Part shown: in pieces, positions 3,308 through 54,595 of the stretch
Position numbering within the stretch: the stretch's first letter is position 1
Layout of the letters: every line of letters begins with the position of its first letter
From: an uncultured Pseudomonadota bacterium
GTDB lineage: Bacteria > Pseudomonadota > Alphaproteobacteria > RF32 > CAG-239
Length of the DNA stretch: 64,000 nucleotides
Direction: 5' to 3'
Assembly (NCBI GenBank): GCA_902763535.1
Contig: CACWSG010000001.1
Span: 51,957-115,956 of the forward strand
Notes under the pieces: generated by a model
What the model saw: the letters and a program-made list of their open reading frames with translations, nothing else
What the model was told of the DNA's origin: nothing
Databases searched by the model: none
Program-made: the position numbers and the translations under genes

Positions 3308-4051
3308 CTAAGCCAAATCGGCAAAAGTTGAAATTGTGTTGGACAGACGAGTGTGTTCCTCGTCTATCATTTGTTGAACATAATCATAACTGCGTTGAAT
3401 CTTGATTAAATTAGTCATTTCCGCAATAGCATTAACATTGGAATTTTCCACCATTCCTTGAATAATGCGCGCATTATCCGCACCATACTCCATTGCATTG
3501 CCTTGAACATTCTCAAACAATACTCCGGCAACCTTTAGCAATTTTCCCTCATCGGCAAAATTAGCAATTTTCAAACGACCGATAATGCCGTTTTCGGTCA
3601 TCACATCACCGCTTTCTGAGATAACTATCTCTTTTTCTCCCGGAGCAATGAACAACGGAGCGTTACTTTCGCTTAAAACAATATCGCCCTCGGTAGTGGT
3701 AATTGCACCGTCTTCATTCAAAGTAAATTGACCTTTACGCGTATAACGCTCACCGGCTGCGGTTTCTACACAGAAAAATCCCTTACCGCGAATAGCCACA
3801 TCCAAATCATTGCCGGTTTCCTTGAAACTGCCTTCACTAAAATCGGCATAATCACCATAATCCTGCGTAAAATAAATCGGACTTGAGCCAATTCCCAAAG
3901 CTGTCGGTGTTTGTTGTAAATAAGATGTAAAAACGGCATCATCTTGCTTATATCCGGCAGTATTCATATTGGCTATATTATTAGAAACAATATTCATTTG
4001 TTTCCACAAAGCCATCTGACGCGACAAAGCCACATAATTTGTATTATCCAT
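3308..4051 (-). CDS. flgF: Flagellar proximal rod protein FlgF
   Basis: N-terminal VALSRQMALWKQMNIVSNNIANMNTAGY rod motif. 247 aa. Immediately upstream of flgG. Confidence 0.85.
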   Translation of the reverse strand: MDNTNYVALSRQMALWKQMNIVSNNIANMNTAGYKQDDAVFTSYLQQTPTALGIGSSPIYFTQDYGDYADFSEGSFKETGNDLDVAIRGKGFFCVETAAGERYTRKGQFTLNEDGAITTTEGDIVLSESNAPLFIAPGEKEIVISESGDVMTENGIIGRLKIANFADEGKLLKVAGVLFENVQGNAMEYGADNARIIQGMVENSNVNAIAEMTNLIKIQRSYDYVQQMIDEEHTRLSNTISTFADLA

Positions 4052-4180
4052 TTATTTTCCCCTTTTAATATCAGCGCTTTCCCTTATCTGCGCTATCGGA
4101 TAATTTAATCATGTGCTTATATATGCAAAACCCGTGCCAAATTTTAAAATTACAAATTTTTGTTTATTGTTTAGCAACGC

Positions 4181-4585
<405 letters not shown>

Positions 4586-4620
4586 AACCGAAAACAATCC
4601 ATCTTTTAATCCATAATTTT

Positions 4621-5883
4621 TTATTTGGCAAGATTTTTTATACAATCACCAAAATCTTTGCCGCGTTCTTCAAAATTTTTATAACAATTATAACTGGGCG
4701 CTGCCGGCGATAATACAACAACACCGCCATCTTTTGTATACTCAAAAGCTGTCTCAACTGCCTCTTTCATATCATGTACCGCCTTGCTCTGCACTCCGTC
4801 AGATGCCGCCATAATTCTTACACCGGTATCCGGCAACACCACTAAACGGATTCTGTTACCCAATGATTTAAGATATTCACCCAACTTGGCATAATCCTGT
4901 CCGCGATCATAGCCACCCGCAATCAAAGTCATAATTTGACCTTTATCCAAAGCCTTAAGTGCTGCGATTGCTGTTTCCGGTGTTGTTGAAATACTATCAT
5001 CAACAAACTCAACTCCCCTAAACTCTCCTACTTTTTGCAAACGATGCGGCAAAGCCTGAAATGACGCAAAAGCCTCCTCGCATTTTTTTAAAGAAATTCC
5101 AAGTAATTTTACAACACTTAATACCGCGCAAGCATTATGAGCATTATGTTCTCCCGGCAACGGCAAAACCTGACATGAAAATATTTTTTCATTTCCATCA
5201 TAAAAACAACCGTCGTTTATATGCACCCCCTGACTGTCATTAAACCATTCTGCCGCTTTTTTATCCGCCATCAGCAATGTGCGTTCATCATCGGCATTCA
5301 GTAGTTTTCGTTTTGCCTTATTTATCATATTCAGTTTATCAAGCCAATATTGTTGATGGCTGCCGTGCCATTGCAAATGCTCCGGATAAAGATTAAGCAA
5401 AACTCCGATATCGGCACTCCCTTCACAATCAGCGCATTGATAGCTGGACATTTCTGCCACAATCACATCAGCTTTGCTATCGACCAACTCGACCAAAGGA
5501 AGCCCGATGTTTCCACCTAATTCAGCATTTTTTCCCAAATATTTTAAGGTATGATACAACAAAGCAGAAGTCGTACTTTTTCCTTTTGTTCCGGTAATTG
5601 CAATCAGCAAAGCATCTCTACTTTTGTTGGCGAAAAACAAATTACTGCCGGAAGTAACGGTAATTCCTTTTTTCTTTGCTTGAACAATTTCTTGACGATA
5701 CAGACTGACCCCCGGTGATTTAATCAAAACATCACATTGTTCAATCTCATCAGTATTATCTTCATTTATCTCTATAATTTTGTAAGAGGAACAATGTTGT
5801 TTGACAGCCCTGATTGCAGCCTGCCCTTCTTTACCTTGTCCCCAAACACCGATAACTTTATTTTCTAAATTCTGCCATAACAT
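4621..5883 (-). CDS. Mur ligase family protein (MurD-like ATP-dependent amide ligase)
   Basis: P-loop AITGTKGKSTT and an N-terminal Rossmann-like region with SPGVSL…GI.V.S..NLF, as in MurD. 420 aa. Lies outside any dcw cluster and overlaps the next gene by 26 nt. Confidence 0.55.
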   Translation of the reverse strand: MLWQNLENKVIGVWGQGKEGQAAIRAVKQHCSSYKIIEINEDNTDEIEQCDVLIKSPGVSLYRQEIVQAKKKGITVTSGSNLFFANKSRDALLIAITGTKGKSTTSALLYHTLKYLGKNAELGGNIGLPLVELVDSKADVIVAEMSSYQCADCEGSADIGVLLNLYPEHLQWHGSHQQYWLDKLNMINKAKRKLLNADDERTLLMADKKAAEWFNDSQGVHINDGCFYDGNEKIFSCQVLPLPGEHNAHNACAVLSVVKLLGISLKKCEEAFASFQALPHRLQKVGEFRGVEFVDDSISTTPETAIAALKALDKGQIMTLIAGGYDRGQDYAKLGEYLKSLGNRIRLVVLPDTGVRIMAASDGVQSKAVHDMKEAVETAFEYTKDGGVVVLSPAAPSYNCYKNFEERGKDFGDCIKNLAK

Positions 5884-7171
5884 TGCTAAATCTTTCCGGT
5901 ATTATATGTTGTTCACTCGGCACAAACAAATCATGACCATCATTTTCAATTTTATTTGCCAAGGATTTTATCACACAATCATTCTGCCATTCCGCTCTTG
6001 TTGCCAATTGTGCCAATGCCCATTTTGACTCTGCAAACTCTCCGACACATTCAAAAGGTTTATACCCCGTCAAACCTAACAGTTCTTCATATCCCTTTAT
6101 CTGATTTTCATCATTAAGCGGATTTTTCCCCACAACTGCAATCAGCTTATCTTTATCCATAAAAGCTGCTAAAATCAAAAATACAAAACGACATTTATCA
6201 CAATCACCGCACCAGTGATTTAATCTCTTTTCTTCATCGAGTTTAAAAGCCTTATTGCAGCTGGTAAACACCTCAAAATATTTAGCACATTTCTGCACAA
6301 ACAACTTGGCAATATGAATTTCACTAATCGGACGCAACAATGAAAAATAACGAAACTCAGGAGTTATCTTTTGACTCAATTCATAAAAATCGCTTTCAAA
6401 ATCATACGATTTACTGTATTGATGATTGATTTTGACGCCGTCAAAAACCATATTACCGGAAGAAGCCGAACGTTCACAACTCATCACCACATATTTTTTG
6501 TTATAAATAATCGCTACTGCCCACAACATAAAAGCCAAAATTCCGGTTATCGGCACATGACCGTTATAAACTTCACCGCTTTCATTCAAACGCAGCAACT
6601 CCGGTGCTATTTTTCGTTTTATAATAATTTTATCCATACCGGATTTGGCAATAACATTGGCAATCGGCTTCGGCTCACCGCAAGCAATAGCGGTGGTTTT
6701 TATATTCAAATCACGCAACAACTCTGCACTCACACAAGAATCTTTGCCCCCTCCGATGGGTAAAAGAGCCTCATCATTAAAGTGCATATCTATGGGCTCT
6801 CTTGTTAACCCCTGTTGAAACGGAAACTTAATTTTTTCAAAAAAATGCAGGTTATTGCGAACTGCAAATTCACCTAATCCGTTGACATAAAAGCGTTTAA
6901 AAAATTCTGCCTCTTGCGAATTTATCGCATAATCATCTAACACAATACTCTCAGGCAAAAAAGCCTTATAATAACTTATACCGGCCGCCAAATGCCAATA
7001 TCTGAGGACTTGATGTAATGCCTGAATTTGTTGTTCGTTAAGTTCTTTGGGCGGATTGGGCAAAATAAACTTTTCAACAAATTCATATTTGTCATCCACT
7101 CCATAGCCAAAAGAAACTTCCCCATTCTCAGGTGAAAAATTAAAATTTTTGAAATGAAATTCTTTATACAA
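5858..7171 (-). CDS. PP-loop ATP-pyrophosphatase family protein with QueC-like zinc motif
   Basis: PP-loop LPIGGGKDSCVSAELL and a C-proximal WCGDCDKCRF cysteine cluster resembling QueC Zn-binding CxxCxxC. At 437 aa it is much larger than QueC. Translationally coupled to the Mur-ligase-like gene. Confidence 0.5.
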   Translation of the reverse strand: MYKEFHFKNFNFSPENGEVSFGYGVDDKYEFVEKFILPNPPKELNEQQIQALHQVLRYWHLAAGISYYKAFLPESIVLDDYAINSQEAEFFKRFYVNGLGEFAVRNNLHFFEKIKFPFQQGLTREPIDMHFNDEALLPIGGGKDSCVSAELLRDLNIKTTAIACGEPKPIANVIAKSGMDKIIIKRKIAPELLRLNESGEVYNGHVPITGILAFMLWAVAIIYNKKYVVMSCERSASSGNMVFDGVKINHQYSKSYDFESDFYELSQKITPEFRYFSLLRPISEIHIAKLFVQKCAKYFEVFTSCNKAFKLDEEKRLNHWCGDCDKCRFVFLILAAFMDKDKLIAVVGKNPLNDENQIKGYEELLGLTGYKPFECVGEFAESKWALAQLATRAEWQNDCVIKSLANKIENDGHDLFVPSEQHIIPERFSNVMAEFRK

Positions 7172-7176
7172 TTTTC

Positions 7177-9522
7177 TTAGTCCTTAGCCTGATGCAACAC
7201 AAGTTGGGTAAACGGAATTTCAATTCCCTCTTCTTCAAAACGTTTGTTTATGATAAAGCGTACATCACTCGGTGCAGTCCAACCGCTCCATACATCACTG
7301 ACATAAAACCTTACCTCAAAATCAAGACTGCTGGCACCGAAATCCTGAAACAACACATAAGGAGCCGGCTTTTTAGCAACTTTAGGATGCGACGCCACAC
7401 ATTCCAACAAAACTTTCTTGACCTTTTCCACATCACTGCCATAAGCAACCCCTACTTTAACGCCATAACGAGCCCAATTACTTTGGTGGGTTAAATTGGT
7501 TACCGAGTTGGACAGCACTTTGGCATTAGGAATAATCAGACTTGATCGTTGAAAAGTTTCAATTTCGGTGGAACGAATATTAATCTGTTTAACCTGTCCC
7601 TCTTCACCATTGATAACAACCCAATCGCCGACTTTTATCGGACGCTCAAATAACATGATAATACCGGATACAAAGTTGTTTACAATATCTTGCAGACCTA
7701 AACCGATACCAACAGACAAAGCACCGGCAATTATTGCAATATTGGATAAGTTGCCGCCCATTATAGCTATTGCCAACAATCCTGACAACACATAGCCGAT
7801 ATAAGCAAAACCTGAGGCTAAAGAATGTTTGGTTCCGCTGTCAATTGAAGTGCGTTCCAAAATCTTAAATTCAATTCGGTCTTGCAAAAATCGGATTATC
7901 CACAAACAGATAACAAATGCCAAAACACCCCAAAAGATTGAGACTAATGATATTTTAACACCGCCGACATTAAATCCGTAGATTGCTTTATAGGCCATAC
8001 CTTGCAGCATATCAGTCGGTACACCCCACAAAATCAATATTCCGGCCATAAATACCAAAGTAATTAACGGTTCAACCGCAAAACCGAACCAAAAATCCAC
8101 CTTGCGCAAAAAAATGCGACGCACATGAAAATCTTTTACCCATAAACCCATAAATAGAATTCTGCGTCCTATATCATAAATAAAGCGTCTTATAATGGTA
8201 TAGATAAACAAGGCAACCAATGACAATAATGTGCGGTTAACCACGAAGTAAGCTAATCTGGCATAGCCGGAAAATGCCACCCCGATAACAATACAAGCAT
8301 ACAGCATTGCTAAAGCACCGATTTTAGAAGCGCGATTGCGAGCAATATTAGCTTTTTCATCATCGAGATCATTTTCAGTTTGATCACTGGTAAAATAAAT
8401 ATAAGTCAACCAAACCATGCACACAGCTCTTAATGATGCCGTCAACGCCATCAAATAAGACATCAATTCCAAAGGATAATGCTGTACTGCCACGATGGCG
8501 ATTAAAATCGAAAAAATACCTACCGTATAAATTGTAAAATTAATCGCCATAAACAACCTTTTAGCCTTGATGGTTGACATACTGATAAGCCGCCATTTTT
8601 CATTATACGGGGTTAAAATAACTCGCGCTAAAGCTCTGCCCATGGTCACAAACAAAGCGTAAGACAATATGGTCTGCAAAACCAATTTGAAAAATGCATT
8701 ATTCCAAAAAACAATCAAGCTCAAATGATACCAACAATAGATTATAATTGCTGTGGGAATAATACCGTAAGCACACCAAACTGCCATTGAAGCGGCAATC
8801 TTGCGTCCCAAACGCAAATTTTCAATATCATTGCGATATCCCCAACGATTGATTACAAAATGACGCAAATAATATCCCAAGACAACAATTACAGCCAACA
8901 GCCCTAAAAATTGCAGCATTGCCAAACCGGCACCGCTTCCGCCGTTTTCTTTATATTCCTGATAGGCCAAATAAGGCGATTTGGCTATATCAACCAACAA
9001 TATAAGCAATTCACGATTAACTTGCCACAAAATTGCCGGATTGATAAAACGCAAATCTGTTTTCAGTAAATTGCCCCATAATTTTTGATTGCGAATTTCA
9101 AAAATGCGTAAATTCAATTCTTCAATTTTAGCCGATAACAAATCAATTTCTGATAATCTGGTCTTTTCGGTTGTTAATTCCTGATTAAATTCCTGACGTT
9201 TTTGCATAATAATTTTAGCCTCTACGGCTCCGTCATCATTTTCTCCTAAAGCCTCAATGCGTTTTTCAATAAGTTTTATCTCACTGGCAATAATTTGTCT
9301 TGATGAGGTCAAATGTCCGAAAGTATCATTCAAATAGGTAATTTTATCAACCAACGAGTTAACATCTGTTTTTTCATCTTTGGTAAGTTTTTCAATATTT
9401 TTTAATTCGGTTGAAATGGTTTTATAACTCAAGCCATTGCCCAAATCATCAATACGCGCGTTTTGCGCATAAACATCAAAACTCAATAAAACAGCTAATA
9501 TCCAAACAACAATCTTTTTCAT
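7177..9522 (-). CDS. Mechanosensitive ion channel, MscS family (MscK/KefA-like)
   Basis: 781 aa with signal peptide, long periplasmic coiled-coil, multiple TM helices, and C-terminal MscS core (…GIIMLFERPIKVGDWVVINGEEGQVKQINIRSTEIET…). Confidence 0.85.
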   Translation of the reverse strand: MKKIVVWILAVLLSFDVYAQNARIDDLGNGLSYKTISTELKNIEKLTKDEKTDVNSLVDKITYLNDTFGHLTSSRQIIASEIKLIEKRIEALGENDDGAVEAKIIMQKRQEFNQELTTEKTRLSEIDLLSAKIEELNLRIFEIRNQKLWGNLLKTDLRFINPAILWQVNRELLILLVDIAKSPYLAYQEYKENGGSGAGLAMLQFLGLLAVIVVLGYYLRHFVINRWGYRNDIENLRLGRKIAASMAVWCAYGIIPTAIIIYCWYHLSLIVFWNNAFFKLVLQTILSYALFVTMGRALARVILTPYNEKWRLISMSTIKAKRLFMAINFTIYTVGIFSILIAIVAVQHYPLELMSYLMALTASLRAVCMVWLTYIYFTSDQTENDLDDEKANIARNRASKIGALAMLYACIVIGVAFSGYARLAYFVVNRTLLSLVALFIYTIIRRFIYDIGRRILFMGLWVKDFHVRRIFLRKVDFWFGFAVEPLITLVFMAGILILWGVPTDMLQGMAYKAIYGFNVGGVKISLVSIFWGVLAFVICLWIIRFLQDRIEFKILERTSIDSGTKHSLASGFAYIGYVLSGLLAIAIMGGNLSNIAIIAGALSVGIGLGLQDIVNNFVSGIIMLFERPIKVGDWVVINGEEGQVKQINIRSTEIETFQRSSLIIPNAKVLSNSVTNLTHQSNWARYGVKVGVAYGSDVEKVKKVLLECVASHPKVAKKPAPYVLFQDFGASSLDFEVRFYVSDVWSGWTAPSDVRFIINKRFEEEGIEIPFTQLVLHQAKD

Positions 9523-10496
9523 TTCATCTCTTTCTTTAACATTTTAACAATCAAATCACTAATTGTGGCGGCCATAATTTTTGCCTCATCACCGGCCGTC
9601 CAAAAGCTAACAGCATTTTCTAGACTCTCATCTTGACGAACACGACTGATGAAAACATCATATTCGCCTTGGACATCAGTCAAAGCGGCATATCCTCCGT
9701 CTTTTTGACTATTCACCACCAAAATGCCTTTAGTCTTTTTCCATATAGCCAAAGCATCTTCCGGCGTTGTTTCCCGCTTAAATTTCACACTCACAAAAGC
9801 TCCTGCCCCCACAAACACCGGAGCAATTGCACAATTAGCATGAATTTTAACTTCACCTGCCAAAACTCGTTTCAAATCAACCGCCAATTGCCACTCATAC
9901 TCTGTTTCTTCACCAATAAAAGAACCTGCTTGAGGAATAACATTAAAAGCCAAAGTCTTGGGAAAAATCTTTTTATCATCGGGATTATCATTCATCAAAA
10001 TACGCCGCGTATGATTATACAATTCACTCATACCGTCTTGTCCGGCAATATCAGCTCCAACCAACAGCGTAAAGCGTAAACTTTCAATACAAAAATTTTT
10101 TAACGGCTCAACCGCCTTGGCAATCAACAGCGACAACCCATGCGGAACATTAACCACACTTTCAACAGCTCCGTTTTTATCGATGACATAAGGAATTTCA
10201 GCATAATCACTCAAAGCATCCGTTGCGTTGATAATTTTAACTCCGGCTTTGGCCCATTTGTGAGCATATTCTCTTGCCAGCTGTTCATCACCGACAAACA
10301 CCGCCAAATCATAATCTTCTGCTTTGGCTTGTACAACATTTTGCACGGCAAAAATTTTATCCACGCAGTCTATCTCTTCTCCGGTTTGAACTTTGCGTGC
10401 AAACACATCCGCATCACAATCCTTACCCTTATTCAGCAAAGCTTCCAACACTTCGCGCACAGCCTTAACTTCACCCAAAATTGCCAATTTTTTCAT
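9519..10496 (-). CDS. Aspartate-semialdehyde dehydrogenase family protein (Asd/USG-1-like)
   Basis: Active-site-like IHANCAIAP and Asd-like dimerisation region. 325 aa. N-terminal NAD-binding motif is atypical. Confidence 0.5.
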   Translation of the reverse strand: MKKLAILGEVKAVREVLEALLNKGKDCDADVFARKVQTGEEIDCVDKIFAVQNVVQAKAEDYDLAVFVGDEQLAREYAHKWAKAGVKIINATDALSDYAEIPYVIDKNGAVESVVNVPHGLSLLIAKAVEPLKNFCIESLRFTLLVGADIAGQDGMSELYNHTRRILMNDNPDDKKIFPKTLAFNVIPQAGSFIGEETEYEWQLAVDLKRVLAGEVKIHANCAIAPVFVGAGAFVSVKFKRETTPEDALAIWKKTKGILVVNSQKDGGYAALTDVQGEYDVFISRVRQDESLENAVSFWTAGDEAKIMAATISDLIVKMLKKEMK

Positions 10497-10636
10497 ATTA
10501 TTAATTCCCTAATCCAAGCCACTTTACAATATTCTTTTATAAAAGATTTAACAATAAAATCTGTTGTGCTATTAACAAGTTTCTTTATAAACAAACAACC
10601 CTCATTGCTTTTTTTAAGCAACAAGGGCTGTAAAAA

Positions 10637-39407: not shown

Positions 39408-39482
39408 GGTCCCATCGTCTAATGGTTAGGACATCACCCTTTCACGGTGGTAATATGGGTTCGAATCCCGTTGGGATCACCA
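39408..39482 (+). tRNA. tRNA-Glu (anticodon TTC); integration site of the downstream island
   Basis: GGTCCCATCGTCTAATGGTTAGGACATCACCCTTTCACGGTGGTAATATGGGTTCGAATCCCGTTGGGATCACCA. Anticodon loop CT-TTC-AC. A Rho-independent terminator follows at 39483-39520. Confidence 0.9.
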
Positions 39483-40990
39483 ATCGCAACACCCTCGATT
39501 TTCGGGGGTGTTTTTTTGTTTAAAGAATCTATCAAATCAAAAGGTTTTCTAAGGTTATAAGAGATTTTCCTATCCTTCATTTGCAAGTTCGAAAGTAAAA
39601 GTTTCAAAATCGCTCTTTTGGTCTCTACTTTCGAACTTTTGAAAATTTGGTAGGCATTATTCCCCAATGAAAGTATTGTTGATATTGCGATAGAGAAGTT
39701 TTTATCAGCCTCGGTCAATAAAGCAGACTTTCCCTCAAGTTCGTATTGTTCTTGTTTAACGTCTTCATTCATATCCCGATATTCTTCGGGCGTAATATGA
39801 CCTTCAAGCAGTAATGACCGCAATCGTTTAATCTTGTCTTGGCAATTGTCATATTTCTGACGAATTGCTCGCACTTCCTTATTATGAGCCTCATTTTGTT
39901 TATTGATGATTTTTTCCATATCAGCCTTAAGATATGGCATAATTTCTTGTGGAACGTGCAAATTCTTTAACTCACCTTCTATTGCCTCTAATGCAACATT
40001 TTCATTAATTTGAGGGTTTTCACAATTGCCTTTGAAATGCGAACACTTCAAATAGATATACTCCTTTCCGCTTGGTTTTGTTTTTTTATAGCTGCTGATA
40101 GTACAGCCACATACGCCGCAAGTCATAAGCCCTCTGAAAATAAAAGGCTCTTCAGTCGCCTTAAACGGTATTTTTTCTTCTGGTTTACGACCGTGCATAA
40201 TATCTTGGCAAGTTTGAAACAATGCAGGAGCAATGAACGTTTCATATTGATGCTTAAATACATTCTCCCTGTATATCATTTCCCCTATGTAAAATTTGTT
40301 GTTCAAAATACGATGAACTGCACTGGTATTTAATGGTTTACCGTTGTATTTACTCGTCAAACCCCATTCTTTACATTGTTTTACCATATCTTTTAATGAA
40401 TATAAGCCTGTTGCATAGCGTTCAAACAGCTTTTGTATAATTGGCGCTCGTTCATTATCAACAATAACATCAGCTTTACCATCTGGTTTTCTAACATTAA
40501 AATATCCTAAAGGAGCTCTATACATACAAAAACCGTGTTCGGCTTGATGATTCATACCACTAACAACGTTATCTCGCAAAGAAAGAACATAGTTTTGTGC
40601 CATAACGACATTTAAGCCTAAAATCGTTAAATCACCAGCTTTTGAATTTTTATCAAGCACCAAATTCTCTTGCACTAAGTGAAGTTCTAATTGACCGCTC
40701 TTACGCATTTCATCAATCATTGTATAGTTTTTGAAGTTACGCATTAAGCGGTCAGTTTTCAAACAAACCAGAGCTATACCACCACGTTGTTTCTTACAAA
40801 AAGCCAATATCTCCATAAAGTGCTTGCGTTCACCACGAGTGGAACTTTCAACCAGTTCAGCATCTTTTATAATATTTAAGCCTTTTCGTTCGCAGTATTG
40901 CTTCAACACTTCTTGCTGATTTTGCAACGAGTAGCCCTCTTGCGATTGCATAGTAGTCGATACACGACGTAATAAAACAGCATTTTTCAT
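39434..40990 (-). CDS. Large serine recombinase (integrase)
   Basis: N-terminal resolvase catalytic domain (VLLRRVSTTMQSQEGYSLQNQ…, catalytic Ser in RVST). Recombinase domain, Cys-containing zinc-ribbon region (CGVCGCT…CSHFKGNC) and coiled-coil. The last ~16 codons are antisense tRNA-Glu sequence. Confidence 0.85.
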   Translation of the reverse strand: MKNAVLLRRVSTTMQSQEGYSLQNQQEVLKQYCERKGLNIIKDAELVESSTRGERKHFMEILAFCKKQRGGIALVCLKTDRLMRNFKNYTMIDEMRKSGQLELHLVQENLVLDKNSKAGDLTILGLNVVMAQNYVLSLRDNVVSGMNHQAEHGFCMYRAPLGYFNVRKPDGKADVIVDNERAPIIQKLFERYATGLYSLKDMVKQCKEWGLTSKYNGKPLNTSAVHRILNNKFYIGEMIYRENVFKHQYETFIAPALFQTCQDIMHGRKPEEKIPFKATEEPFIFRGLMTCGVCGCTISSYKKTKPSGKEYIYLKCSHFKGNCENPQINENVALEAIEGELKNLHVPQEIMPYLKADMEKIINKQNEAHNKEVRAIRQKYDNCQDKIKRLRSLLLEGHITPEEYRDMNEDVKQEQYELEGKSALLTEADKNFSIAISTILSLGNNAYQIFKSSKVETKRAILKLLLSNLQMKDRKISYNLRKPFDLIDSLNKKTPPKIEGVAIGDPNGIRTHITTVKG

Positions 40991-41353
40991 TACTAATTAT
41001 CCTTATTATTAAAAGTATCATATCATACAATTTTAGACAAAAACAAGCAAATTATTTAAGACTAAACATTTTTAATAATGATTAGTTTTCTAATAAAAAT
41101 CTTACCAAAAACCCTTAGTTACAAATAATTTCCCAACCAAAAACCTCTTTTACATAATTTCAATACAAGCCAATTGGTGGTTTGTCAGCAAAATGCCTGT
41201 AAGCATTTTTGTCCAAACAATGATAAATGAAAAAGTTGGAAATTGTAAAATCGTGGTATCCGAATGAAACATTGTCTGATGATGATGCTTCAAGAATATA
41301 TGAACGATTATTGCAACTTTTTCTACTTTTTTACAATGAGGACAATCTGACTA

Positions 41354-42184
41354 ATGAAAGAGAGGTTACTAATGAGTCAGAAAAAAAATAAAATTTATAA
41401 AGAAGCTGAAAATCAATTGAATGAAATGCAAAAGGCATTCATCGAATTTGATAAAAGCTATATTCTTCCCAGAAATCACTTGAATTCAGCCCTCATTGGT
41501 TGTTATCAAGCTTCAACGGAATGGGAGGATAAGTTCATAGAAGAATACTGTGAACAAAACAACATCAAATATATGAAGAAGAAACGCTACAAAAATATAG
41601 TGATGCTAGCTATGAATGTTAGCGATGACTGCGATGAAAGGACAAAAGCTCGTGTTAGAACTTATGTTCGTATCTTAAAAAAATTTAAGCAGCTAAATTA
41701 TGATGTTGAAACAGCAAAAGAGCAACTTGAAGAATTCGGTACTGACTATTTTGCTAATCCAAGAAAAAAGAAGGAAAAATCGGAAGAAACTTCAAAGCCG
41801 CAACAGCTTGAGTTTGATTTCGGAACTTCTTCAAAAAATACTTCGAATGAAGAAGACGATGATGATAGCGAAGCTGATGCAGAGGAAATAAGCGATGATG
41901 ATTCCGAAGAAGATAAAGACGAATGCGATTTTGCAGATGAAGATGATGATGAAAACTATGAAGGAAAAAATCGCTTTCGTGATTATCACATTCCAGCTTC
42001 TGTAAAACAAGACAAACAATCTTCTAAAACTTTTTCAGAAGAACTTATTGACCTTTGTAACAAGTATGACTTTGAGGATGAAAACTTTGTCCTTTGGATA
42101 TGTGAGGATAAAGTCCGAATGAGTACTGATAAAAAACTCATTAATCGCTTGGAAAAACAAAATTATGAGTTCGAAGACTTATAG
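41354..42184 (+). CDS. Hypothetical protein with poly-acidic low-complexity region
   Basis: 276 aa with a 60-aa D/E-rich segment (EEDDDDSEADAEEISDDDSEEDKDECDFADEDDDE). Confidence 0.45.
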   Translation: MKERLLMSQKKNKIYKEAENQLNEMQKAFIEFDKSYILPRNHLNSALIGCYQASTEWEDKFIEEYCEQNNIKYMKKKRYKNIVMLAMNVSDDCDERTKARVRTYVRILKKFKQLNYDVETAKEQLEEFGTDYFANPRKKKEKSEETSKPQQLEFDFGTSSKNTSNEEDDDDSEADAEEISDDDSEEDKDECDFADEDDDENYEGKNRFRDYHIPASVKQDKQSSKTFSEELIDLCNKYDFEDENFVLWICEDKVRMSTDKKLINRLEKQNYEFEDL

Positions 42185-42300
42185 TTTATCTTTTGATAAG
42201 GGGGTACAGCAGTATCCCCTTATTTGCAAAACGTTGTTCAACAACGTTTTTACATCACCCCAAAAACTGCACAAATGTATACAACCATATTTAGTCATTA

Positions 42301-43065
42301 ATGCAGTTTATATTAAGGACAACTACTATGACTAACTTCGCAGATAAATTCGAACATAACGCAGTATTACAGTTAAGGAAATTAAATAGAGCTATTGATT
42401 TATATTGCAAGGATATCTTTAGAAAAAATAAACTAATAAGATATGTAAGAAGCGATAATGGATACGGTATGATGCAGCCTATGGCTTTATATAACTTTTC
42501 AGAAATAGCATTTACTCACCTAGAGCCAATTATTGGTGTTGAAAATATTTCAATGTTTACTATAGCCGTTGATACTTTCAATTTTGGGAAAGACAATTGG
42601 GATTTCAATTATCCATTATTTCGTAAAGAAATCAAAAAAATACTAAAAGGTTATGACTACATTGCTAATGTGGCTTTAGATGAATTTCCAAGAGGACGTT
42701 ACTTTGATGAAGGGATATTAATGACACCGCATATACACGGCATATTTTTCAGACCGTTAACTCGTTGGGAAAAAGGTAAAATATCCATAAAAATAAAAAA
42801 ACATTTTCCAGAATATCGAATAAGACCTTTTGTTGTCAGAGAAAAGTTTGATTTAAAATCTGCAATACATTATTCTTTCAAGGCATTATATGGCGGTAAA
42901 ACCACTTATTCTGGTACGTGCGGAAAAAATATTGAAACACCATATAGGAACCTCTTTATAAATTTTTTGCACCTTAAAGCCCTCAAAATATACGATTGTG
43001 CTTTTGCTGGTGGTAAAGGCATTGAAGTGTTAAATAATATTATCAGCGATATTAAAACTAACTAA
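42301..43065 (+). CDS. HUH-superfamily replication initiator (Rep)-like protein
   Basis: HUH motif TPHIHGIFF and downstream Tyr motif IHYSFKALYGGK (YxxK). 254 aa. Confidence 0.5.
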   Translation: MQFILRTTTMTNFADKFEHNAVLQLRKLNRAIDLYCKDIFRKNKLIRYVRSDNGYGMMQPMALYNFSEIAFTHLEPIIGVENISMFTIAVDTFNFGKDNWDFNYPLFRKEIKKILKGYDYIANVALDEFPRGRYFDEGILMTPHIHGIFFRPLTRWEKGKISIKIKKHFPEYRIRPFVVREKFDLKSAIHYSFKALYGGKTTYSGTCGKNIETPYRNLFINFLHLKALKIYDCAFAGGKGIEVLNNIISDIKTN

Positions 43066-43612
43066 CACAACTTAAATAATTATAAACAGTCCTTCGTGAA
43101 ACATTAAATTGTTTGGCGATGGTGGTTATAGGGGTACGATTATTAACCAAGGCTTTTATTTCTTCGGCTTGTTCATTGGTTAGTTTACGTTGCCCACCTT
43201 TATATTTACCTTTGAGTTTAGCCAAAGCAATTCCCTCACGTTGACGCTCCAAGATTAAGTTGCGCTCAAGCTCTGCTACAGCTCCCAACATCGTCATCAT
43301 CATTTTTTGATACGGATCTTGTTTATCGGGGGCAAATATCAAATTTTCTTTATGAAATACAACTTTAGCTCCTTTATTGGTTATTTCTTCGACCAAGTTC
43401 AGCAAATCATTTGTGTTGCGTGCTAATCTATCCATCGAGTGGACATTAACCACATCACCGGCACGAATATTAAGTAACATAGCTTGAAGTTCTGGGCGGT
43501 TAGTGTTTTTACCACTGATTTTTTCGACATATTCCCTATCGCAAGCAACATTTAACAGTTGGCGCTCGGTATTCTGGTCGGTTGTGGAAACTCTCTTGTA
43601 ATTAAACAACAT
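43058..43612 (-). CDS. Small serine recombinase (resolvase/invertase family) with C-terminal HTH
   Basis: MLFNYKRVSTTDQNTERQ… (catalytic Ser). DRLARNTNDLLNLVEEITNKGAKVVF. C-terminal HTH IAKQFNVSRRTVYNYL. 184 aa. Confidence 0.85.
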   Translation of the reverse strand: MLFNYKRVSTTDQNTERQLLNVACDREYVEKISGKNTNRPELQAMLLNIRAGDVVNVHSMDRLARNTNDLLNLVEEITNKGAKVVFHKENLIFAPDKQDPYQKMMMTMLGAVAELERNLILERQREGIALAKLKGKYKGGQRKLTNEQAEEIKALVNNRTPITTIAKQFNVSRRTVYNYLSCVS

Positions 43613-43731
43613 TTTAAGCTCCTATATGTGAAATTTACATTTATAACTTTGATTTACAGGTGTGTAATTAATGCGGTTTTCGACTTTGTTTACACACTTT
43701 TAAGGCTGCGCAATCACGGTATACTTTATTT

Positions 43732-44253
43732 TTACACCGCCTCAGCCTTGACAACTATCGTGTCCTCAACTGTCAGGTCATAAATCCTTGGCATATTGCT
43801 CGAACGTAGAAATCGCAAACCGTCAGAATCATTTAAATAAATTCTGTCTGTGGTTATTCGGTCAATCACGCTCCAATGGTCGTGTAGACCTTGTATGCCT
43901 ATAATCACGGCTGTATTCGGCTGTTTTGTTAGTGTCGATATTTTTTTGATGGCTGTTGTCGTGCGAGTTTTATCGTTGAATGGCCTATAATGCGTTAACC
44001 TGATATTGTCCAATTGTGATTGAATAATACCAAGATAATCCTCAACTTGTTCAACTTCTGAGCCTTCTTTATGGACTGCGTTTAATTTACGGTGTTTATA
44101 TAAGTATGCAATTATTTCTTGAAACCAAAATTTTACGTATTTCTTTTTAAAATTCTCCAAACCTTCTGTCGATAACAATGTCGCATTAATTGAGCTATAC
44201 ACACCACAGAGATTGTCGAGATTGCCTTGCGAAAAGTAAATATTCTTCATCAA
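43732..44253 (-). CDS. Stand-alone C39-like (papain-fold, clan CA) peptidase-domain protein
   Basis: Q-x7-CG (QGNLDNLCGVYSSINA), His motif GLHDHWSVI and downstream Asp. Paralogous to 56398..56982. Confidence 0.5.
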   Translation of the reverse strand: MMKNIYFSQGNLDNLCGVYSSINATLLSTEGLENFKKKYVKFWFQEIIAYLYKHRKLNAVHKEGSEVEQVEDYLGIIQSQLDNIRLTHYRPFNDKTRTTTAIKKISTLTKQPNTAVIIGIQGLHDHWSVIDRITTDRIYLNDSDGLRFLRSSNMPRIYDLTVEDTIVVKAEAV

Positions 44254-44573
44254 TATTCATCTCCTCTCATTATGGTTAGCACTCTGTTGGTAACGCTCTC
44301 ATCGGATATGTCGGGACTGAGGCATAAGTAGTCTAGGTCGTAGTAATCAATCTTCCAGAAGTATGTTGCCCCTTTGAAGTCTATAGCCCCGAAGTCGTGT
44401 TCTTGATTAGGATCATTATTTGCAGTGAATTTATCAAAAGTGCGAACTCGGTTTAACAGCTCAGCACGGTCATTGTCGTTTAACTCGCAAACACCAACTG
44501 TCAACATAACTTTGCCACCAGTGAATGTCTTGCGAAGTTTGTCGTTCAATAGTCGTATTTTACCAACACTCAT
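44250..44573 (-). CDS. Small hypothetical protein with candidate double-glycine leader
   Basis: 107 aa, N-terminus MSVGKIRLLNDKLRKTFTGG-KVM…. The Gly-Gly sits at residues 19-20 with hydrophobics at -4, -12 and -15. Translationally coupled (ATGA overlap) to the C39-like gene. Confidence 0.4.
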   Translation of the reverse strand: MSVGKIRLLNDKLRKTFTGGKVMLTVGVCELNDNDRAELLNRVRTFDKFTANNDPNQEHDFGAIDFKGATYFWKIDYYDLDYLCLSPDISDESVTNRVLTIMRGDEY

Positions 44574-44894
44574 TTTTTACTCCTTTAAAATAAAAAAAGA
44601 GCCAAGGTATTTAACCAAGGCTCTCAAAATTTGCGGATTAAGGCAGATGGTATGTCCCACAAAACCTATTTCGACATTAGAATTGTATGACATACCACCT
44701 CACTTTCACACCGACAAAATTAAACCTTATCTGCTCTGGTGAAAAAGCAGATTATATAAGGCTTATGTGTCAGTGATTTTGTATTCGAAATAAACGAACC
44801 GATTCGTTTTTGAATACAACTAATTATAACACAAAAATAAAGGAAAATCAAGTACTTAATTGACAAAACATCATTTTTTGACGCATTTTTTAGT

Positions 44895-45551
44895 TTATTT
44901 CAAATGGTTTAGTACCTCTTTTTTATGTTTATTGAAATAACTGATTATTTCTTGAGCAAATTGTCTGAATTGTTTTATATCTTCATCGCTTATTGTATCG
45001 GAATCATTTATTGAAACAGTATGTTGACTATCATTATAAGTGTCACAATCACAATTTTTAACAGCTATTAATTTCGATGTTTCTTGTATAATCGCAAAAT
45101 CGTCATTGTCCTGATTATTGATTGAGCTAAAAACACCTAGCTGTTTGTTTTGCCAATACATCACAACAGAAAAATTAATTTCAAAATGTTTATTTATTTC
45201 ATAAGATGCTGTAAATAATGAATAATCGCTTATATCATTTGCTAAATCAAAACAGTTATCTAAATCTGTAATATAAATTATATTATGATTTTCAATATCT
45301 AAGTCATTTACCAGATCTTCCCAAACGGCTTCCCATATTTGACGACACATAATCCAGCCGTCCGTTTTAAACTTCTGCAAAAACACCTTAGCTTGATAAA
45401 AGTTTTGATATTCATCAAACGAAATTTTGCTAGGTACTTCGGTATTGTCGAACATAGCTAAAGCTTTTATCGTATTATCTTTGCAAACTTTTTTTAAATT
45501 TTCAGGTATTTGTATCATTTTTAACACTCCCAATATAAAATTTTGTTCCAC
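44895..45551 (-). CDS. Hypothetical protein (218 aa), acidic
   Basis: Long ORF, overlaps the upstream gene by 31 nt (operon). No recognisable motif. Confidence 0.4.
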   Translation of the reverse strand: MEQNFILGVLKMIQIPENLKKVCKDNTIKALAMFDNTEVPSKISFDEYQNFYQAKVFLQKFKTDGWIMCRQIWEAVWEDLVNDLDIENHNIIYITDLDNCFDLANDISDYSLFTASYEINKHFEINFSVVMYWQNKQLGVFSSINNQDNDDFAIIQETSKLIAVKNCDCDTYNDSQHTVSINDSDTISDEDIKQFRQFAQEIISYFNKHKKEVLNHLK

Positions 45552-46306
45552 AATGAAGACCTGTAACGTTTCATATCTTCATCTTCAACCAGTCCGTCTA
45601 GGTTCTGTTCCCATAATTGCATAACATCACACCAGAGTATATTTTTCCAAGATTCTTTTTTTTCTTTTTTTGCATCAATATCTTTTTGAATATTTTTAAT
45701 AGTGATAACGACGAAGGTCAGCTCTTTACCTTTGGCAATTTTCTTCATCTGTTCCTCATAAACGCTTAATTCATTACCATCAATTACGGCATCAAATTTT
45801 ACTTCAATACATAAAGCTCCGCTATTCCATATAATTGTATTATCAATACGTTTTCGCCTTTTTTTCTTATCTTTGACATTTTTAGTAAGAACTTCGCAAG
45901 CACAATAATAACCATCTTTGGGAAGTTCTTTATTTTGATTTAATAATTTAAAAATAGCCTGTAAAAATGCTTTGCAGCTTTGTTGATTTTCGAGTAAAAA
46001 ATTTGATAATGCTTTTGTAAATTGTGGTTCTTTCAAATTTAAATAGCGATATAAAGGCTTATAACGGAATGAATGATGCGCTGTATAATTACCTAAAAAT
46101 GGAAAATCACTTAATAGATCTTCATATGTTTGATAACCGATTTTAGCATACTGCTTTGCTATATAATCGTGATAGTCTTGCAAAAACGATTTGACTTTTA
46201 AGTGATCCCCATAAAATGCTTGAATATATGGCAGACTTTGATGATATACATCATTACAATATACTTCGGATAATTGTGAAAAATATTTTTCTTTACTCAT
46301 TATCAT
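45521..46306 (-). CDS. Hypothetical protein with PD-(D/E)xK-like nuclease motif
   Basis: …IDNTIIWNSGALCIEVKFD… (D…E-V-K), embedded in predicted beta strands. 261 aa. Confidence 0.4.
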   Translation of the reverse strand: MIMSKEKYFSQLSEVYCNDVYHQSLPYIQAFYGDHLKVKSFLQDYHDYIAKQYAKIGYQTYEDLLSDFPFLGNYTAHHSFRYKPLYRYLNLKEPQFTKALSNFLLENQQSCKAFLQAIFKLLNQNKELPKDGYYCACEVLTKNVKDKKKRRKRIDNTIIWNSGALCIEVKFDAVIDGNELSVYEEQMKKIAKGKELTFVVITIKNIQKDIDAKKEKKESWKNILWCDVMQLWEQNLDGLVEDEDMKRYRSSLWNKILYWEC

Positions 46307-46330
46307 ACCAATTCTCCGAATATATCAATT

Positions 46331-46600
46331 AAAAAACCACCTTTGAATAAGGTGGTCGGAGAGTTCGTAAATCATATTAGGTAAAATGATCCTTTTAGCC
46401 TTTAGAAAGTAGATTCTTGGACATACGCTAAAAGCTCCCCGACCATTGTCGGGGATAGCTGTTGCTTCAAAAATATTGCAACTGACGATGTTATCCGACA
46501 CCGTACCTAATAAGAGCTTACGACGGCTCCGCACCTTATATAAGGTACTAAACATAGGTTGCCCTATGCCTAATAAAAACATTAAGCCTACATAGGTTAA
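46331..46600. repeat. Copy B of the ~250-bp intergenic repeat family, located inside the island
   Basis: See copy A at 14835-15100. Hairpin ccacctttgaataaggtgg, then ggagagtt and the gctccccgaccattgtcgggg core. Confidence 0.75.
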
Positions 46601-46697
46601 ATTACAATTAAAATCACTTTATTTTCAGAAAATTATTTTGCTTTTTTGGTAAAGCATAATATTATGAAAAAAAATACTAACAGTAGGATTAAAGATA

Positions 46698-47360: not shown

Positions 47361-47409
47361 AAGTAATTTTGTATAAGTGATTACCAATTTCGAAGAAATC
47401 ATCTGTATA

Positions 47410-49899: not shown

Positions 49900-50056
49900 T
49901 TATTGTCTCCATATAAAACCTAACTGCAAAATATGACATACAAATTAACATAAACATCTAAACAATCAAGAATAAAAACAATTCGCATCATTTTGACGTA
50001 GCTTGGAAATTGGACAGATTAACAATTGCACAAGTACTAAATTTTATACCTGAGTG

Positions 50057-51289: not shown

Positions 51290-51376
51290 TATTAATCTCC
51301 TTAATTAACTGAATACAATATAAAATAACCCCTGCATATATGCAAGGGTTATTTTTAAGATATTAAATCAATATAA

Positions 51377-54475: not shown

Positions 54476-54595
54476 AAAATTGTATTTAGGCGGTAACCGT
54501 AGGTTAATTAAAAATGCTTAAATATAGGTTTGATGATAAAATCCTTCCGTGTGAACTAAGGGTCTAGCCAAACGTTAAGAACTCAACCCACATTC

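What the first reader, a model, noticed from the sequence alone, without database searches (positions are those of the whole stretch)
4621..7171. Mur-ligase-like gene translationally coupled to a large QueC-like PP-loop ATPase, outside the cell-wall cluster
A MurD-like ADP-forming ligase overlaps by 26 nt a 437-aa protein. That protein has a PP-loop (GGGKDS) and a QueC-type Cys cluster (WCGDCDKCRF). Both enzyme classes activate carboxylates (acyl-phosphate and acyl-adenylate respectively). A coupled pair suggests a two-step amide/nitrile-forming modification. The product could be a peptidoglycan stem-peptide amidation, analogous in concept to MurT/GatD, or a small-molecule ligation. It is not the canonical murD or queC context.
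Basis: partly seen in the sequence, partly recalled or inferred. Interest (0 to 1): 0.55.

Follow-up and report, generated by a model that had tools for sequence, protein, structure and literature searches.

The report
Known MurL–MurD2 D-glutamate cell-wall bypass
The overlapping gene pair is the already characterised MurD2/MurL route, which adds ordinary L-glutamate to the cell-wall precursor and then uses ATP to flip it to the D-form. It occurs here in an uncultured rumen alphaproteobacterium, so it is a new host for a known mechanism, not a new chemistry.

Summary
A 420-aa MurD-type ligase gene (4621-5883, minus strand) overlaps a 437-aa gene (5858-7171, minus strand) by 26 nt. The larger protein carries GGGKDS and WCGDCDKCRF.

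The ligase carries the MurD2 L-glutamate-specificity signature: Glu168, Arg327, Pro396, Tyr398 and Ile298. These replace E. coli MurD Asp182, Lys348, Ala414, Leu416 and Lys319. In the 86 other MurD sequences compared, the combination is confined to MurL-linked genes: 54 of 70 carry exactly these five residues and none of 16 canonical MurDs does.

The murL→murD order recurs immediately adjacent in 67 of the 70 related loci with a complete murD-type ORF, across several phyla. In 13 of them the two genes are fused into one ORF.

So the pair most likely replaces glutamate racemase plus MurD. It is not an amidation or nitrile-forming accessory system.

Not testable here: enzyme activity, and whether murI or a second murD exists elsewhere in the genome.

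The parts
5858..7171 (-). [quoted passage not shown]
   Evidence: NF041275 MurL at E=3.5e-129, 431 bits, aligned 3-431 of the protein to 8-442 of the 447-position model. Precomputed Pfam PF26299 MurL_N and PF26298 MurL_epimerase_C on the identical protein. 40% identity over 431 residues to the PGAP-annotated murL of Xanthomonas sacchari. Homologues start at the same residue.
4621..5883 (-). murD2: MurD-type ligase with the L-glutamate-specificity signature, 420 aa
   Evidence: TIGR01087 at 314.6 bits. All catalytic MurD positions are kept. MurD2 signature E/I/R/P/Y. An HMM of MurL-linked MurDs scores it 427.5 bits against 318.5 for a canonical-MurD HMM.
5858..5883 (-). 26-nt overlap of the murL 3' end and the murD2 5' end (probable translational coupling)
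   Evidence: The same -26 overlap occurs in L002, L005, L007, L008, L010, L011, L014 and L042.
6737..6754 (-). MurL PP-loop motif GGGKDS (residues 140-145)
   Evidence: Coordinates. Across 78 homologues G140 is kept in 77, K143 in 76, and the other four positions in all 78. It sits where the PP-loop lies in QatC, the best structural match.
6191..6259 (-). MurL Cys cluster Cys305-x15-Cys321-x2-Cys324-x2-Cys327, a QueC/QatC-type putative Zn site
   Evidence: Cys305, Cys324 and Cys327 are kept in 78/78 and Cys321 in 76/78. QatC binds Zn with Cys332, Cys352, Cys355 and Cys358, and the motif is shared with QueC. Metal binding was not tested here.
6047..6049 (-). MurL Cys375 (motif FECVGE), an invariant Cys outside the Cys4 cluster; a candidate catalytic base by inference only
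   Evidence: Kept in 78/78 homologues. No functional evidence.
5380..5382 (-). MurD2 Glu168, equivalent to E. coli MurD Asp182 and X. oryzae MurD2 Glu197
   Evidence: Alignment. Glu occurs in 64 of 70 MurL-linked MurDs and in none of 16 canonical MurDs. In X. oryzae MurD2 the E197D/R358K double mutant switches the enzyme to D-Glu (PMC8788868).
4903..4905 (-). MurD2 Arg327, equivalent to E. coli Lys348 and X. oryzae Arg358
   Evidence: Arg occurs in 70 of 70 MurL-linked MurDs. Canonical MurDs have Lys in 14 of 16, with Arg only in the two Bacilli.
4990..4992 (-). MurD2 Ile298, equivalent to E. coli Lys319
   Evidence: Ile, Leu or Phe occurs in 70 of 70 MurL-linked MurDs, and Lys in 15 of 16 canonical ones. 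The E. coli K319T mutant gains L-Glu acceptance.
4690..4698 (-). MurD2 Pro396-Ser-Tyr398, equivalent to E. coli Ala414-Ser-Leu416 and X. oryzae Pro433/Phe435
   Evidence: Pro occurs in 67 of 70 MurL-linked MurDs and in none of 16 canonical ones.
7177..9522 (-). mscK-like mechanosensitive channel gene, co-oriented, 5 nt upstream of murL. Probably co-transcribed but not part of the conserved unit.
   Evidence: Pfam MS_channel domains and NF008438. Conserved next to murL only in the closest relative, L002.
9519..10496 (-). asd-like gene, below threshold for every aspartate-semialdehyde dehydrogenase model; it overlaps the start of mscK by 4 nt and is the probable first gene of the transcription unit
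   Evidence: 139 bits against a cut-off of 223. Conserved only in L002. A terminator-like hairpin at 10595-10631 lies just upstream.
4510..4585 (-). tRNA-Thr(CGU), 35 nt downstream of the murD2 stop codon on the same strand
   Evidence: ARAGORN.

Best explanation
The pair encodes the MurD2/MurL alternative route for the second residue of the peptidoglycan stem peptide.

- **MurD2 (4621-5883).** It uses ATP, through an acyl-phosphate and releasing ADP, to ligate L-glutamate rather than D-glutamate onto UDP-MurNAc-L-Ala.
[quoted passage not shown] That gives the normal MurE substrate.
- **How MurL probably works.** Its PP-loop core most likely adenylates the Glu alpha-carboxylate. This acidifies the alpha-proton so that it can be removed and returned from the opposite face, after which the adenylate is hydrolysed.
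- **Consequence.** The route makes free D-glutamate, and hence a glutamate racemase or D-amino-acid transaminase, unnecessary.
- **Expression.** The 26-nt overlap probably couples translation so that the two enzymes are made together.

Status of each step:
- Shown elsewhere: the two reactions, their ATP dependence, AMP formation and one-way direction, for the X. oryzae, Micromonospora and Salinispora enzymes.
- Shown here: homology, specificity-residue signature, synteny, fusions and predicted fold.
- Inferred: the activities of these particular proteins, the adenylation site, the proton-transfer residues, and the absence of murI in this organism.
For: 1. **MurL homology.** Full-length match to NCBIfam MurL (E=3.5e-129) and to Pfam MurL_N plus MurL_epimerase_C. 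40% identity to the annotated X. sacchari MurL. The 431-bit score exceeds the 409 bits of a Micromonosporaceae homologue. Micromonospora and Salinispora, genera of that family by my own taxonomic knowledge, have orthologues that were confirmed in vitro.
2. **MurD2 signature.** The ligase has Glu168, Arg327, Pro396, Tyr398 and Ile298. These are the positions the Dairi group showed to control L- versus D-Glu choice.
   - X. sacchari MurD2 reads E/I/R/P/F.
   - 54 of 70 MurL-linked MurDs read EIRPY.
   - 16 canonical MurDs from six phyla never have Glu at position 182 or Pro at position 414.
3. **Clustering.** The MurL-linked versus canonical split appears in the neighbour-joining tree with bootstrap 123/200. 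A MurD2 HMM built without any alphaproteobacterial sequence beats the canonical HMM by 109 bits. The X. sacchari positive control gives a 100-bit margin.
4. **Synteny.** In 67 of the 70 related loci with a complete murD-type ORF (Alpha- and Gammaproteobacteria, Acidimicrobiia, Micromonosporaceae, Patescibacteria), murD follows murL immediately, from a small overlap to a 25-nt gap.
5. **Fusions.** MurL-MurD2 single ORFs occur in 13 Patescibacteria loci and 11 of the best 150 cluster representatives. One reverse-order MurD-MurL fusion also exists.
6. **Fold.** The AF2 model (pLDDT 94) matches PP-loop ATP pyrophosphatases best: QatC, TtuA, MnmA, NAD synthetase, Cap9 and argininosuccinate synthase. 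This fits AMP-forming carboxylate activation.
7. **No competing genes in view.** No canonical murD, murI or dat gene lies in the window.
Against: - No biochemical or genetic test was possible.
- The MurL score (431 bits) is below the NCBIfam equivalog cut-off (700). That model is built for Xanthomonadales only.
- Bootstrap support for a separate MurD2 clade is moderate (61%).
- Whether the genome lacks murI, dat and a second murD could not be checked, because only 64 kb is available. This absence is the feature that prompted the original discovery.
- Some MurL-like genes are not next to a murD. Examples are the Pseudonocardia plasmids and L023. Family membership alone therefore does not guarantee this function.
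Confidence: 0.88

Rival explanations
1. First reader's idea. A Mur-type ligase and a QueC-like PP-loop enzyme together install an amide or nitrile on the stem peptide or a small molecule. The chemistry would be an amidation like MurT/GatD or a QueC-like nitrile synthesis.
For: The PP-loop motif and QueC/QatC-type Cys cluster are real and conserved. The best fold matches are the QueC-like enzymes QatC and Cap9, which activate a carboxylate for N-C bond formation.
Against: - The protein is a full-length MurL homologue, and MurL was shown to be an epimerase that gives the D-Glu product with the same mass.
- No glutaminase or ammonia-donor gene accompanies the pair.
- The MurT model scores 21 bits against a cut-off of 800.
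- There is no QueC family match at sequence level: Pfam finds nothing and hhalign gives probability 3.4%.
Confidence: 0.03
2. The ligase is the organism's ordinary D-glutamate-adding MurD, displaced from the dcw cluster. The neighbouring MurL-like protein has an unrelated role.
For: TIGR01087 (murD equivalog) is passed at 314.6 bits. PGAP also names the Xanthomonas MurD2 a 'D-glutamate ligase'. Some MurL-like genes occur without a murD neighbour.
Against: - The five specificity positions read E/I/R/P/Y as in MurD2, not D/K/K/A/L.
- None of the 16 canonical MurDs has this combination.
- The MurD2 HMM wins by 109 bits.
- Linkage and fusion to MurL are conserved across phyla.
- TIGR01087 does not separate MurD2 from MurD. 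It also passes the MurL-linked ligases of L061 and L045 and the ligase half of the L040 and L054 fusions.
Confidence: 0.04
3. The chemistry is genuine MurD2/MurL, but it is not the sole D-Glu route. The organism also has murI and/or a canonical murD, and the pair is a backup, a condition-specific route or a recycling route.
For: Absence of murI, dat or a second murD could not be tested; only 64 kb was seen. The operon partners (a mechanosensitive channel and an Asd-like protein) could hint at stress-linked expression.
Against: The organisms in which the pathway was defined lack D-Glu-forming genes. No such gene lies in the window. The pair is strictly conserved in small Patescibacteria genomes, where redundancy is unlikely.
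Confidence: 0.1

Closest known systems
MurD2 (XOO_1320) / MurL (XOO_1319) of Xanthomonas oryzae; Feng et al. 2017, reviewed in PMC8788868 and PMC5808125
   Same: - Same two protein families and the same murL→murD2 order with overlapping reading frames. X. sacchari has a 20-nt overlap; here it is 26 nt.
- Same specificity residues: Glu/Arg/Pro/aromatic, plus Ile at the E. coli Lys319 position.
- The PP-loop motif is identical and the Cys-x2-Cys-x2-Cys spacing is kept, although the residues between the Cys differ (GGGKDS; CGVCPKC in X. sacchari, CGDCDKC here).
   Different: - Sequences have diverged: 40% identity for MurL and 35% for MurD2.
- The host is an uncultured, low-GC rumen alphaproteobacterium, not one of the genera listed in the review.
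- Upstream neighbours differ: aspartokinase/LysA in Xanthomonas, asd-like and mscK-like genes here.
- Activity has not been tested here.
QueC-like PP-loop ATP pyrophosphatases: QatC (PDB 9y02/9y01), Cap9 (9nto), QueC
   Same: - Predicted fold: Foldseek E=1.4e-4, probability 1.00, 387 aligned columns to QatC.
- Same layout as QatC: an N-terminal extra domain, the PP-loop at about residue 140-160, a Rossmann-like core, then a Cys-x(15-19)-Cys-x2-Cys-x2-Cys cluster and a helical C-terminal region.
- ATP is converted to AMP.
   Different: - No significant sequence-family membership: Pfam and PADLOC find nothing and hhalign against E. coli QueC aligns only the PP-loop.
- The TM-score is only 0.41.
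- The first PP-loop residue is Gly, not Ser.
- The substrate is a UDP-muramyl dipeptide rather than a 7-deazaguanine, and the outcome is epimerisation rather than N-C bond formation.
Canonical MurD plus glutamate racemase MurI
   Same: [quoted passage not shown] MurD2 keeps the whole MurD catalytic apparatus, at the positions equivalent to E. coli MurD Lys115, Asn138, Glu157, His183, Lys198, Thr321, Ser415 and Phe422.
   Different: - Racemisation happens after ligation, on the nucleotide-peptide rather than on free glutamate.
- It costs one extra ATP and runs in one direction only.
- The gene lies outside a mraY-murD-ftsW context. Five of the eight control loci whose records annotate that stretch show this order.
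- The specificity residues differ.
MurT/GatD lipid II isoglutaminyl synthase
   Same: A Mur-ligase-fold protein paired with a second enzyme, acting on the stem-peptide glutamate.
   Different: - MurT/GatD amidates the D-iGlu alpha-carboxylate of lipid II using a glutaminase partner.
- Here the ligase is MurD-type; the MurT model scores 21 bits against a cut-off of 800.
- The partner here is a PP-loop enzyme with no amidotransferase domain.

Membership tests
[quoted passage not shown] | Full-length similarity to characterised MurL proteins and their curated models | tested here: met
   NF041275 at E=3.5e-129, covering 8-442 of 447 model positions. Pfam MurL_N and MurL_epimerase_C on the identical protein. 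40% identity to annotated X. sacchari MurL, E=1e-99.
[quoted passage not shown] | Score above the NCBIfam equivalog cut-off (700 bits) | tested here: not met
   431 bits. The model is named for Xanthomonadales. A Micromonosporaceae homologue scores 409, and homologues labelled Gammaproteobacteria or Patescibacteria score 352-397 bits. The cut-off therefore reflects taxonomic scope rather than function.
[quoted passage not shown] | [quoted passage not shown] | not testable with these tools
   This is a biochemical property. Only the PP-loop motif and fold consistent with AMP formation could be shown.
[quoted passage not shown] | Glu and Arg at the positions of X. oryzae MurD2 Glu197 and Arg358 (E. 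coli Asp182 and Lys348), which control Glu stereospecificity | tested here: met
   Glu168 and Arg327. Controls: X. sacchari MurD2 has Glu and Arg, and none of 16 canonical MurDs has both.
[quoted passage not shown] | Pro and an aromatic residue at X. oryzae Pro433 and Phe435; a non-Lys residue at E. coli Lys319 | tested here: met
   Pro396, Tyr398 and Ile298. Pro is never seen in the 16 canonical MurDs, and Lys319 is kept in 15 of them.
[quoted passage not shown] | Gene adjacent to and co-oriented with murL | tested here: met
   26-nt overlap. The same arrangement occurs in 67 of the 70 related loci with a complete murD-type ORF, and fusions exist.
[quoted passage not shown] | Phylogenetic separation from canonical MurD | tested here: inconclusive
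   The split is present in the neighbour-joining tree, but bootstrap support is only 123/200. HMM discrimination is clear, 427.5 against 318.5 bits.
MurD2/MurL pathway (organism level) | The genome lacks glutamate racemase, D-amino-acid aminotransferase and a second, canonical murD | not testable with these tools
   Only 64 kb is available. None of these genes is in the window.
Canonical MurD (D-Glu ligase) | Asp182/Lys348-type glutamate pocket and dcw-cluster (mraY-murD-ftsW) context | tested here: not met
   The pocket residues differ. The neighbours are murL and tRNA-Thr. TIGR01087 is passed, but it also passes the MurL-linked ligases tested (L061, L045, and the L040 and L054 fusions).
PP-loop ATP pyrophosphatase superfamily (QueC/QatC-like branch) | SGGxDS-type PP-loop at the start of a Rossmann-like core | tested here: met
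   GGGKDS, with Gly in place of the first Ser. Four positions are kept in 78/78 homologues, G140 in 77 and K143 in 76. The model (pLDDT 94) matches QatC, TtuA, MnmA, NAD synthetase, Cap9 and ArgG.
PP-loop ATP pyrophosphatase superfamily (QueC/QatC-like branch) | Cys4 zinc site, Cys-x(n)-Cys-x2-Cys-x2-Cys, as in QueC and QatC | tested here: inconclusive
   The motif Cys305, Cys321, Cys324, Cys327 is present and conserved and parallels QatC Cys332, Cys352, Cys355, Cys358. Metal binding and site geometry could not be examined.
QueC family proper (7-cyano-7-deazaguanine synthase) | Significant sequence or profile match to QueC | tested here: not met
   No Pfam hit even at E≤10. hhalign against E. 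coli QueC gives probability 3.4% and aligns only 34 PP-loop columns.
MurT/GatD | MurT-type ligase plus a glutamine amidotransferase partner | tested here: not met
   NF052464 MurT scores 21 bits against a cut-off of 800. The partner protein has no amidotransferase match.

The most novel reading that the evidence does not exclude
Two points that the open-access papers I could search do not state.

1. MurL has been described as 'lacking known conserved domains'. Here it appears to be a QueC/QatC-like PP-loop ATP pyrophosphatase, with a conserved Cys4 (probable Zn) site and one further invariant Cys (Cys375). That would give the first structural rationale for an AMP-forming epimerase: adenylation of the Glu alpha-carboxylate followed by proton exchange.
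2. The pathway is far more widespread than the 'few genera' reported. It includes gut and rumen Alphaproteobacteria, Acidimicrobiia and many Patescibacteria, where MurL and MurD2 are often fused into one bifunctional protein. In this rumen lineage it may be the sole D-Glu route.
Probability: 0.45. Interest if true: 0.35.

Novelty: new member of a known kind. Interest (0 to 1): 0.17.

Why it matters
For the scan, it matters mainly as a clean resolution. An apparently odd ligase plus PP-loop pair is a textbook-adjacent, already characterised pathway.

There is some modest wider value:
- It adds uncultured rumen and gut Alphaproteobacteria to the organisms likely to make cell-wall D-glutamate without a racemase.
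- The family is large: 1148 clusters at 50% identity with E≤1e-30. It is also often fused to MurD2 in Patescibacteria. Both points are relevant to proposals to use MurD2/MurL as a narrow-spectrum antibiotic target.
- Automated annotation still labels MurD2 a D-glutamate ligase.
- The predicted QueC/QatC-like fold of MurL suggests concrete residues to mutate: the PP-loop, the Cys4 cluster and Cys375.

Tried and rejected
- **Local Pfam scan of the 437-aa protein.** No hit, even at E≤10. The local copy returned nothing although MurL_N and MurL_epimerase_C are on record for the identical protein in the precomputed Pfam hits; I take it the local copy lacks them, so the blank is not evidence of novelty.
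- **PDB sequence search for MurL.** Nothing found.
- **PADLOC.** No hit for either protein, so there is no link to QatABCD or CBASS defence systems despite the fold resemblance.
- **hhalign of the MurL profile against E. coli QueC.** Only the PP-loop aligned, probability 3.4%. QueC family membership is rejected.
- **Upstream genes as part of the system.** I asked whether the asd-like and mscK-like genes belong to it. They are conserved next to murL only in the closest relative, L002.
- **Aspartokinase/LysA neighbour.** The one seen in Xanthomonas recurs in only one of the 80 loci. This link is treated as sporadic.
- **First tree script.** It timed out and was replaced by a numpy neighbour-joining implementation.
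- **Whole-genome check for murI or a second murD.** Not possible with the caps and data available.
Full report
**Observation**

4621..5883(-) encodes 420 aa and 5858..7171(-) encodes 437 aa, and they share 26 nt.
- The smaller protein has the Mur-ligase middle and C-terminal domains. It passes the NCBIfam murD model at 314.6 bits against a cut-off of 212.
- The larger protein contains GGGKDS (residues 140-145) and WCGDCDKCRF (320-329).
- No other Mur ligase is encoded in the 64-kb window.
- The neighbouring genes are flagellar basal-body genes by my reading of the ORF translations (not scanned against any family library), a tRNA-Thr, an mscK-like channel, an asd-like gene and hisS.

**What the large protein is**

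- The local Pfam copy gives no hit. NCBIfam matches it end to end to NF041275, UDP-N-acetyl-alpha-D-muramoyl-L-alanyl-L-glutamate epimerase (MurL), at E=3.5e-129.
- The identical protein, found on rumen metagenome contigs, carries precomputed Pfam MurL_N and MurL_epimerase_C domains.
- It is 40% identical over 431 residues to the PGAP-annotated murL of Xanthomonas sacchari.
- The 431-bit score is below the model's 700-bit equivalog cut-off, but that model is specific to Xanthomonadales. A Micromonosporaceae homologue scores 409 bits, and homologues labelled Gammaproteobacteria or Patescibacteria score 352-397. Micromonospora and Salinispora orthologues were confirmed in vitro.

**What is known about the family (PMC8788868 and PMC5808125)**

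- X. oryzae lacks glutamate racemase and D-amino-acid aminotransferase.
[quoted passage not shown] It uses one ATP, forms AMP and works in one direction only.
- Both genes are needed to rescue a D-Glu auxotroph.
- In MurD2, Glu197 and Arg358 (E. coli MurD Asp182 and Lys348) determine stereospecificity, and the double mutant reverts to D-Glu ligation. Pro433 and Phe435 replace Ala414 and Leu416.
- E. coli MurD K319T gains L-Glu acceptance.

**Is the ligase MurD2 or MurD?**

I aligned four sets of sequences: the window protein, E. coli MurD, 70 MurD-type genes linked to murL in related loci, and 15 further canonical MurDs. The canonical set comes from six phyla and was recovered from chromosomes mis-filed as plasmids. 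Five of the eight records that annotate the stretch show an mraY-murD-ftsW order.

| E. coli MurD position | Window protein | 70 MurL-linked MurDs | 16 canonical MurDs |
|---|---|---|---|
| Asp182 | Glu168 | Glu in 64 | Glu in 0 |
| Lys319 | Ile298 | Ile, Leu or Phe in 70 | Lys in 15 |
| Lys348 | Arg327 | Arg in 70 | Lys in 14; Arg in the two Bacilli |
| Ala414 | Pro396 | Pro in 67 | Pro in 0 |
| Leu416 | Tyr398 | Tyr or Phe in 70 | not discriminating: Phe, Tyr or Trp in 13, Leu in 3 |

- The five-residue pattern EIRPY occurs in 54 of the 70 MurL-linked proteins. X. sacchari MurD2 reads E/I/R/P/F.
- All catalytic MurD residues are retained.
- The MurL-linked versus canonical split is recovered by neighbour joining, with moderate support (123/200).
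- An HMM built only from non-alphaproteobacterial MurL-linked ligases scores the window protein 427.5 bits, against 318.5 for the canonical HMM. The Xanthomonas positive control gives 381.7 against 281.2.
- TIGR01087 does not discriminate the two types.

**Linkage**

- In the 80 best related loci from species-representative genomes, 70 carry a complete murD-type ORF. In 67 of these it follows murL directly, usually overlapping by 4-32 nt.
- Most of the other ten loci are truncated by a contig end.
- Thirteen Patescibacteria loci encode MurL and MurD2 as one ORF of 812-870 aa (confirmed for L040 and L054).
- Among the best 150 representatives of 50%-identity clusters, eleven are MurL-MurD-length fusions, with P0121 confirmed. 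One, P0227, has the reverse order.
- The upstream asd-like and mscK-like genes are shared only with the closest relative, so the conserved unit is the pair.

**Fold of MurL**

- An AlphaFold2 model built from 74 homologues is confident (pLDDT 94, pTM 0.92).
- Foldseek against the PDB returns QatC of the QatABCD defence system as the best match: E=1.4e-4, probability 1.00, 387 aligned columns, TM 0.41. It is followed by TtuA, TrmU/MnmA, NMN/NAD synthetase, Cap9 and argininosuccinate synthase, all PP-loop ATP pyrophosphatases.
- QatC has an N-terminal extra domain, a PP-loop at residues 156-161 and a Zn site formed by Cys332, Cys352, Cys355 and Cys358 that is shared with QueC.
- MurL has the same layout, with GGGKDS at 140-145 and Cys305, Cys321, Cys324 and Cys327. 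In 78 homologues from several phyla these positions are near-invariant, as are Cys375, Arg186, His205, Asn249-His250-Gln251, Lys254, Glu259 and Glu381.
- At sequence level there is no QueC family membership.
It fits the published AMP-forming stoichiometry.
- In the open-access library I found no paper that links MurL to the PP-loop or QueC families. That is absence from one library only.

**Mechanism proposed**

[quoted passage not shown] This is the MurD2 step, which proceeds through an acyl-phosphate and releases ADP + Pi.

MurL then adenylates the terminal Glu alpha-carboxylate at its PP-loop. The activated residue loses and regains its alpha-proton from opposite faces, possibly via an oxazolone or enolate, with an invariant Cys, His or Lys as the base. 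[quoted passage not shown]

The reactions are established for homologues. Their assignment to these proteins is by homology, signature, synteny and fold. The adenylation site and the bases are inference.

**Limits**

- No activity data.
- No access to the rest of the genome, so absence of murI, dat and a second murD is untested.
- The Cys4 metal site is unverified.
- Some MurL-like genes, such as those on Pseudonocardia plasmids, lack a murD neighbour.

**Source and distribution**

- The identical MurL protein, followed by a murD-type gene of the same length, occurs on rumen metagenome contigs.
- The nearest genomes are uncultured rumen or gut Alphaproteobacteria, 71% identical or less.
- The family comprises 1148 clusters at 50% identity with E≤1e-30. 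At least 591 matching stretches in species-representative genomes encode a relative. This is considerably more than the handful of genera listed in the 2021 review.

**Verdict**

This is a correctly spotted gene pair with a partly correct reading. It is a new member, in a new lineage, of the known MurD2/MurL pathway, so overall interest is low. The side observations on MurL's fold and on the fusions are modestly useful.

Noticed in passing
L040:5986-8430, L054:5980-8430 and 11 other Patescibacteria loci (L044, L051, L057, L060, L062, L063, L064, L066, L070, L076, L080); proteins P0121, P0127, P0139, P0155, P0157, P0170, P0175, P0205, P0211, P0248, P0258; P0227: MurL and MurD2 are encoded as a single fused ORF of about 800-915 aa in many candidate-phyla-radiation (CPR/Patescibacteria) genomes. 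One representative, P0227, has the reverse domain order MurD-MurL. No paper in the searched library mentions these fusions.
   Followed up: partly
P0222 (918 aa); L101:926-3535 (Xanthomonas sacchari): One MurL homologue is fused to an N-terminal aspartokinase (AA_kinase + ACT). In X. sacchari a bifunctional aspartokinase/diaminopimelate decarboxylase lies two genes upstream of murL. In the window an Asd-like gene lies two genes upstream. This looks like a sporadic link between MurL and the aspartate-to-DAP branch. It is not general: a related gene turned up near murL in only 1 of the 80 loci.
   Followed up: partly
window 9519-10496 (-): The Asd-like protein (325 aa) scores below threshold for every aspartate-semialdehyde dehydrogenase model (139 bits against a cut-off of 223). 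By eye it lacks the N-terminal GxxGxxG loop, the active-site Cys of the NCST motif and the catalytic His. It may be a pseudo-enzyme. It overlaps the start of the mscK-like gene by 4 nt.
   Followed up: no
L102 (Pseudonocardia alni pPaSha1) 3959-5359; hits H42 and H44: Mobilisable Pseudonocardia plasmids carry 'hypothetical' genes about 31% identical to MurL. The one locus fetched, L102, has no adjacent murD. The MurL-like family therefore probably includes members with another substrate.
   Followed up: no
L101:5304-6740: PGAP annotates the Xanthomonas MurD2, next to an annotated murL, as 'UDP-N-acetylmuramoyl-L-alanine--D-glutamate ligase'. TIGR01087 cannot separate MurD2 from MurD, so MurD2 genes are probably mis-named wherever this model supplies the name.
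   Followed up: partly
window 39408-55000: A probable integrated element sits next to tRNA-Glu(UUC) at 39408-39482. It contains a large serine recombinase (39434-40990, -), a small serine invertase-like recombinase (43058-43612, -), a Dcm-type cytosine methyltransferase (50057-51289, -), an 829-aa ORF and several others with no family match. GC is 26-35% against about 39% elsewhere.
   Followed up: no
window 4510-4585 (-): tRNA-Thr(CGU) lies 35 nt downstream of the murD2 stop codon on the same strand, with no terminator-like hairpin between them. It may be co-transcribed with the operon.
   Followed up: no
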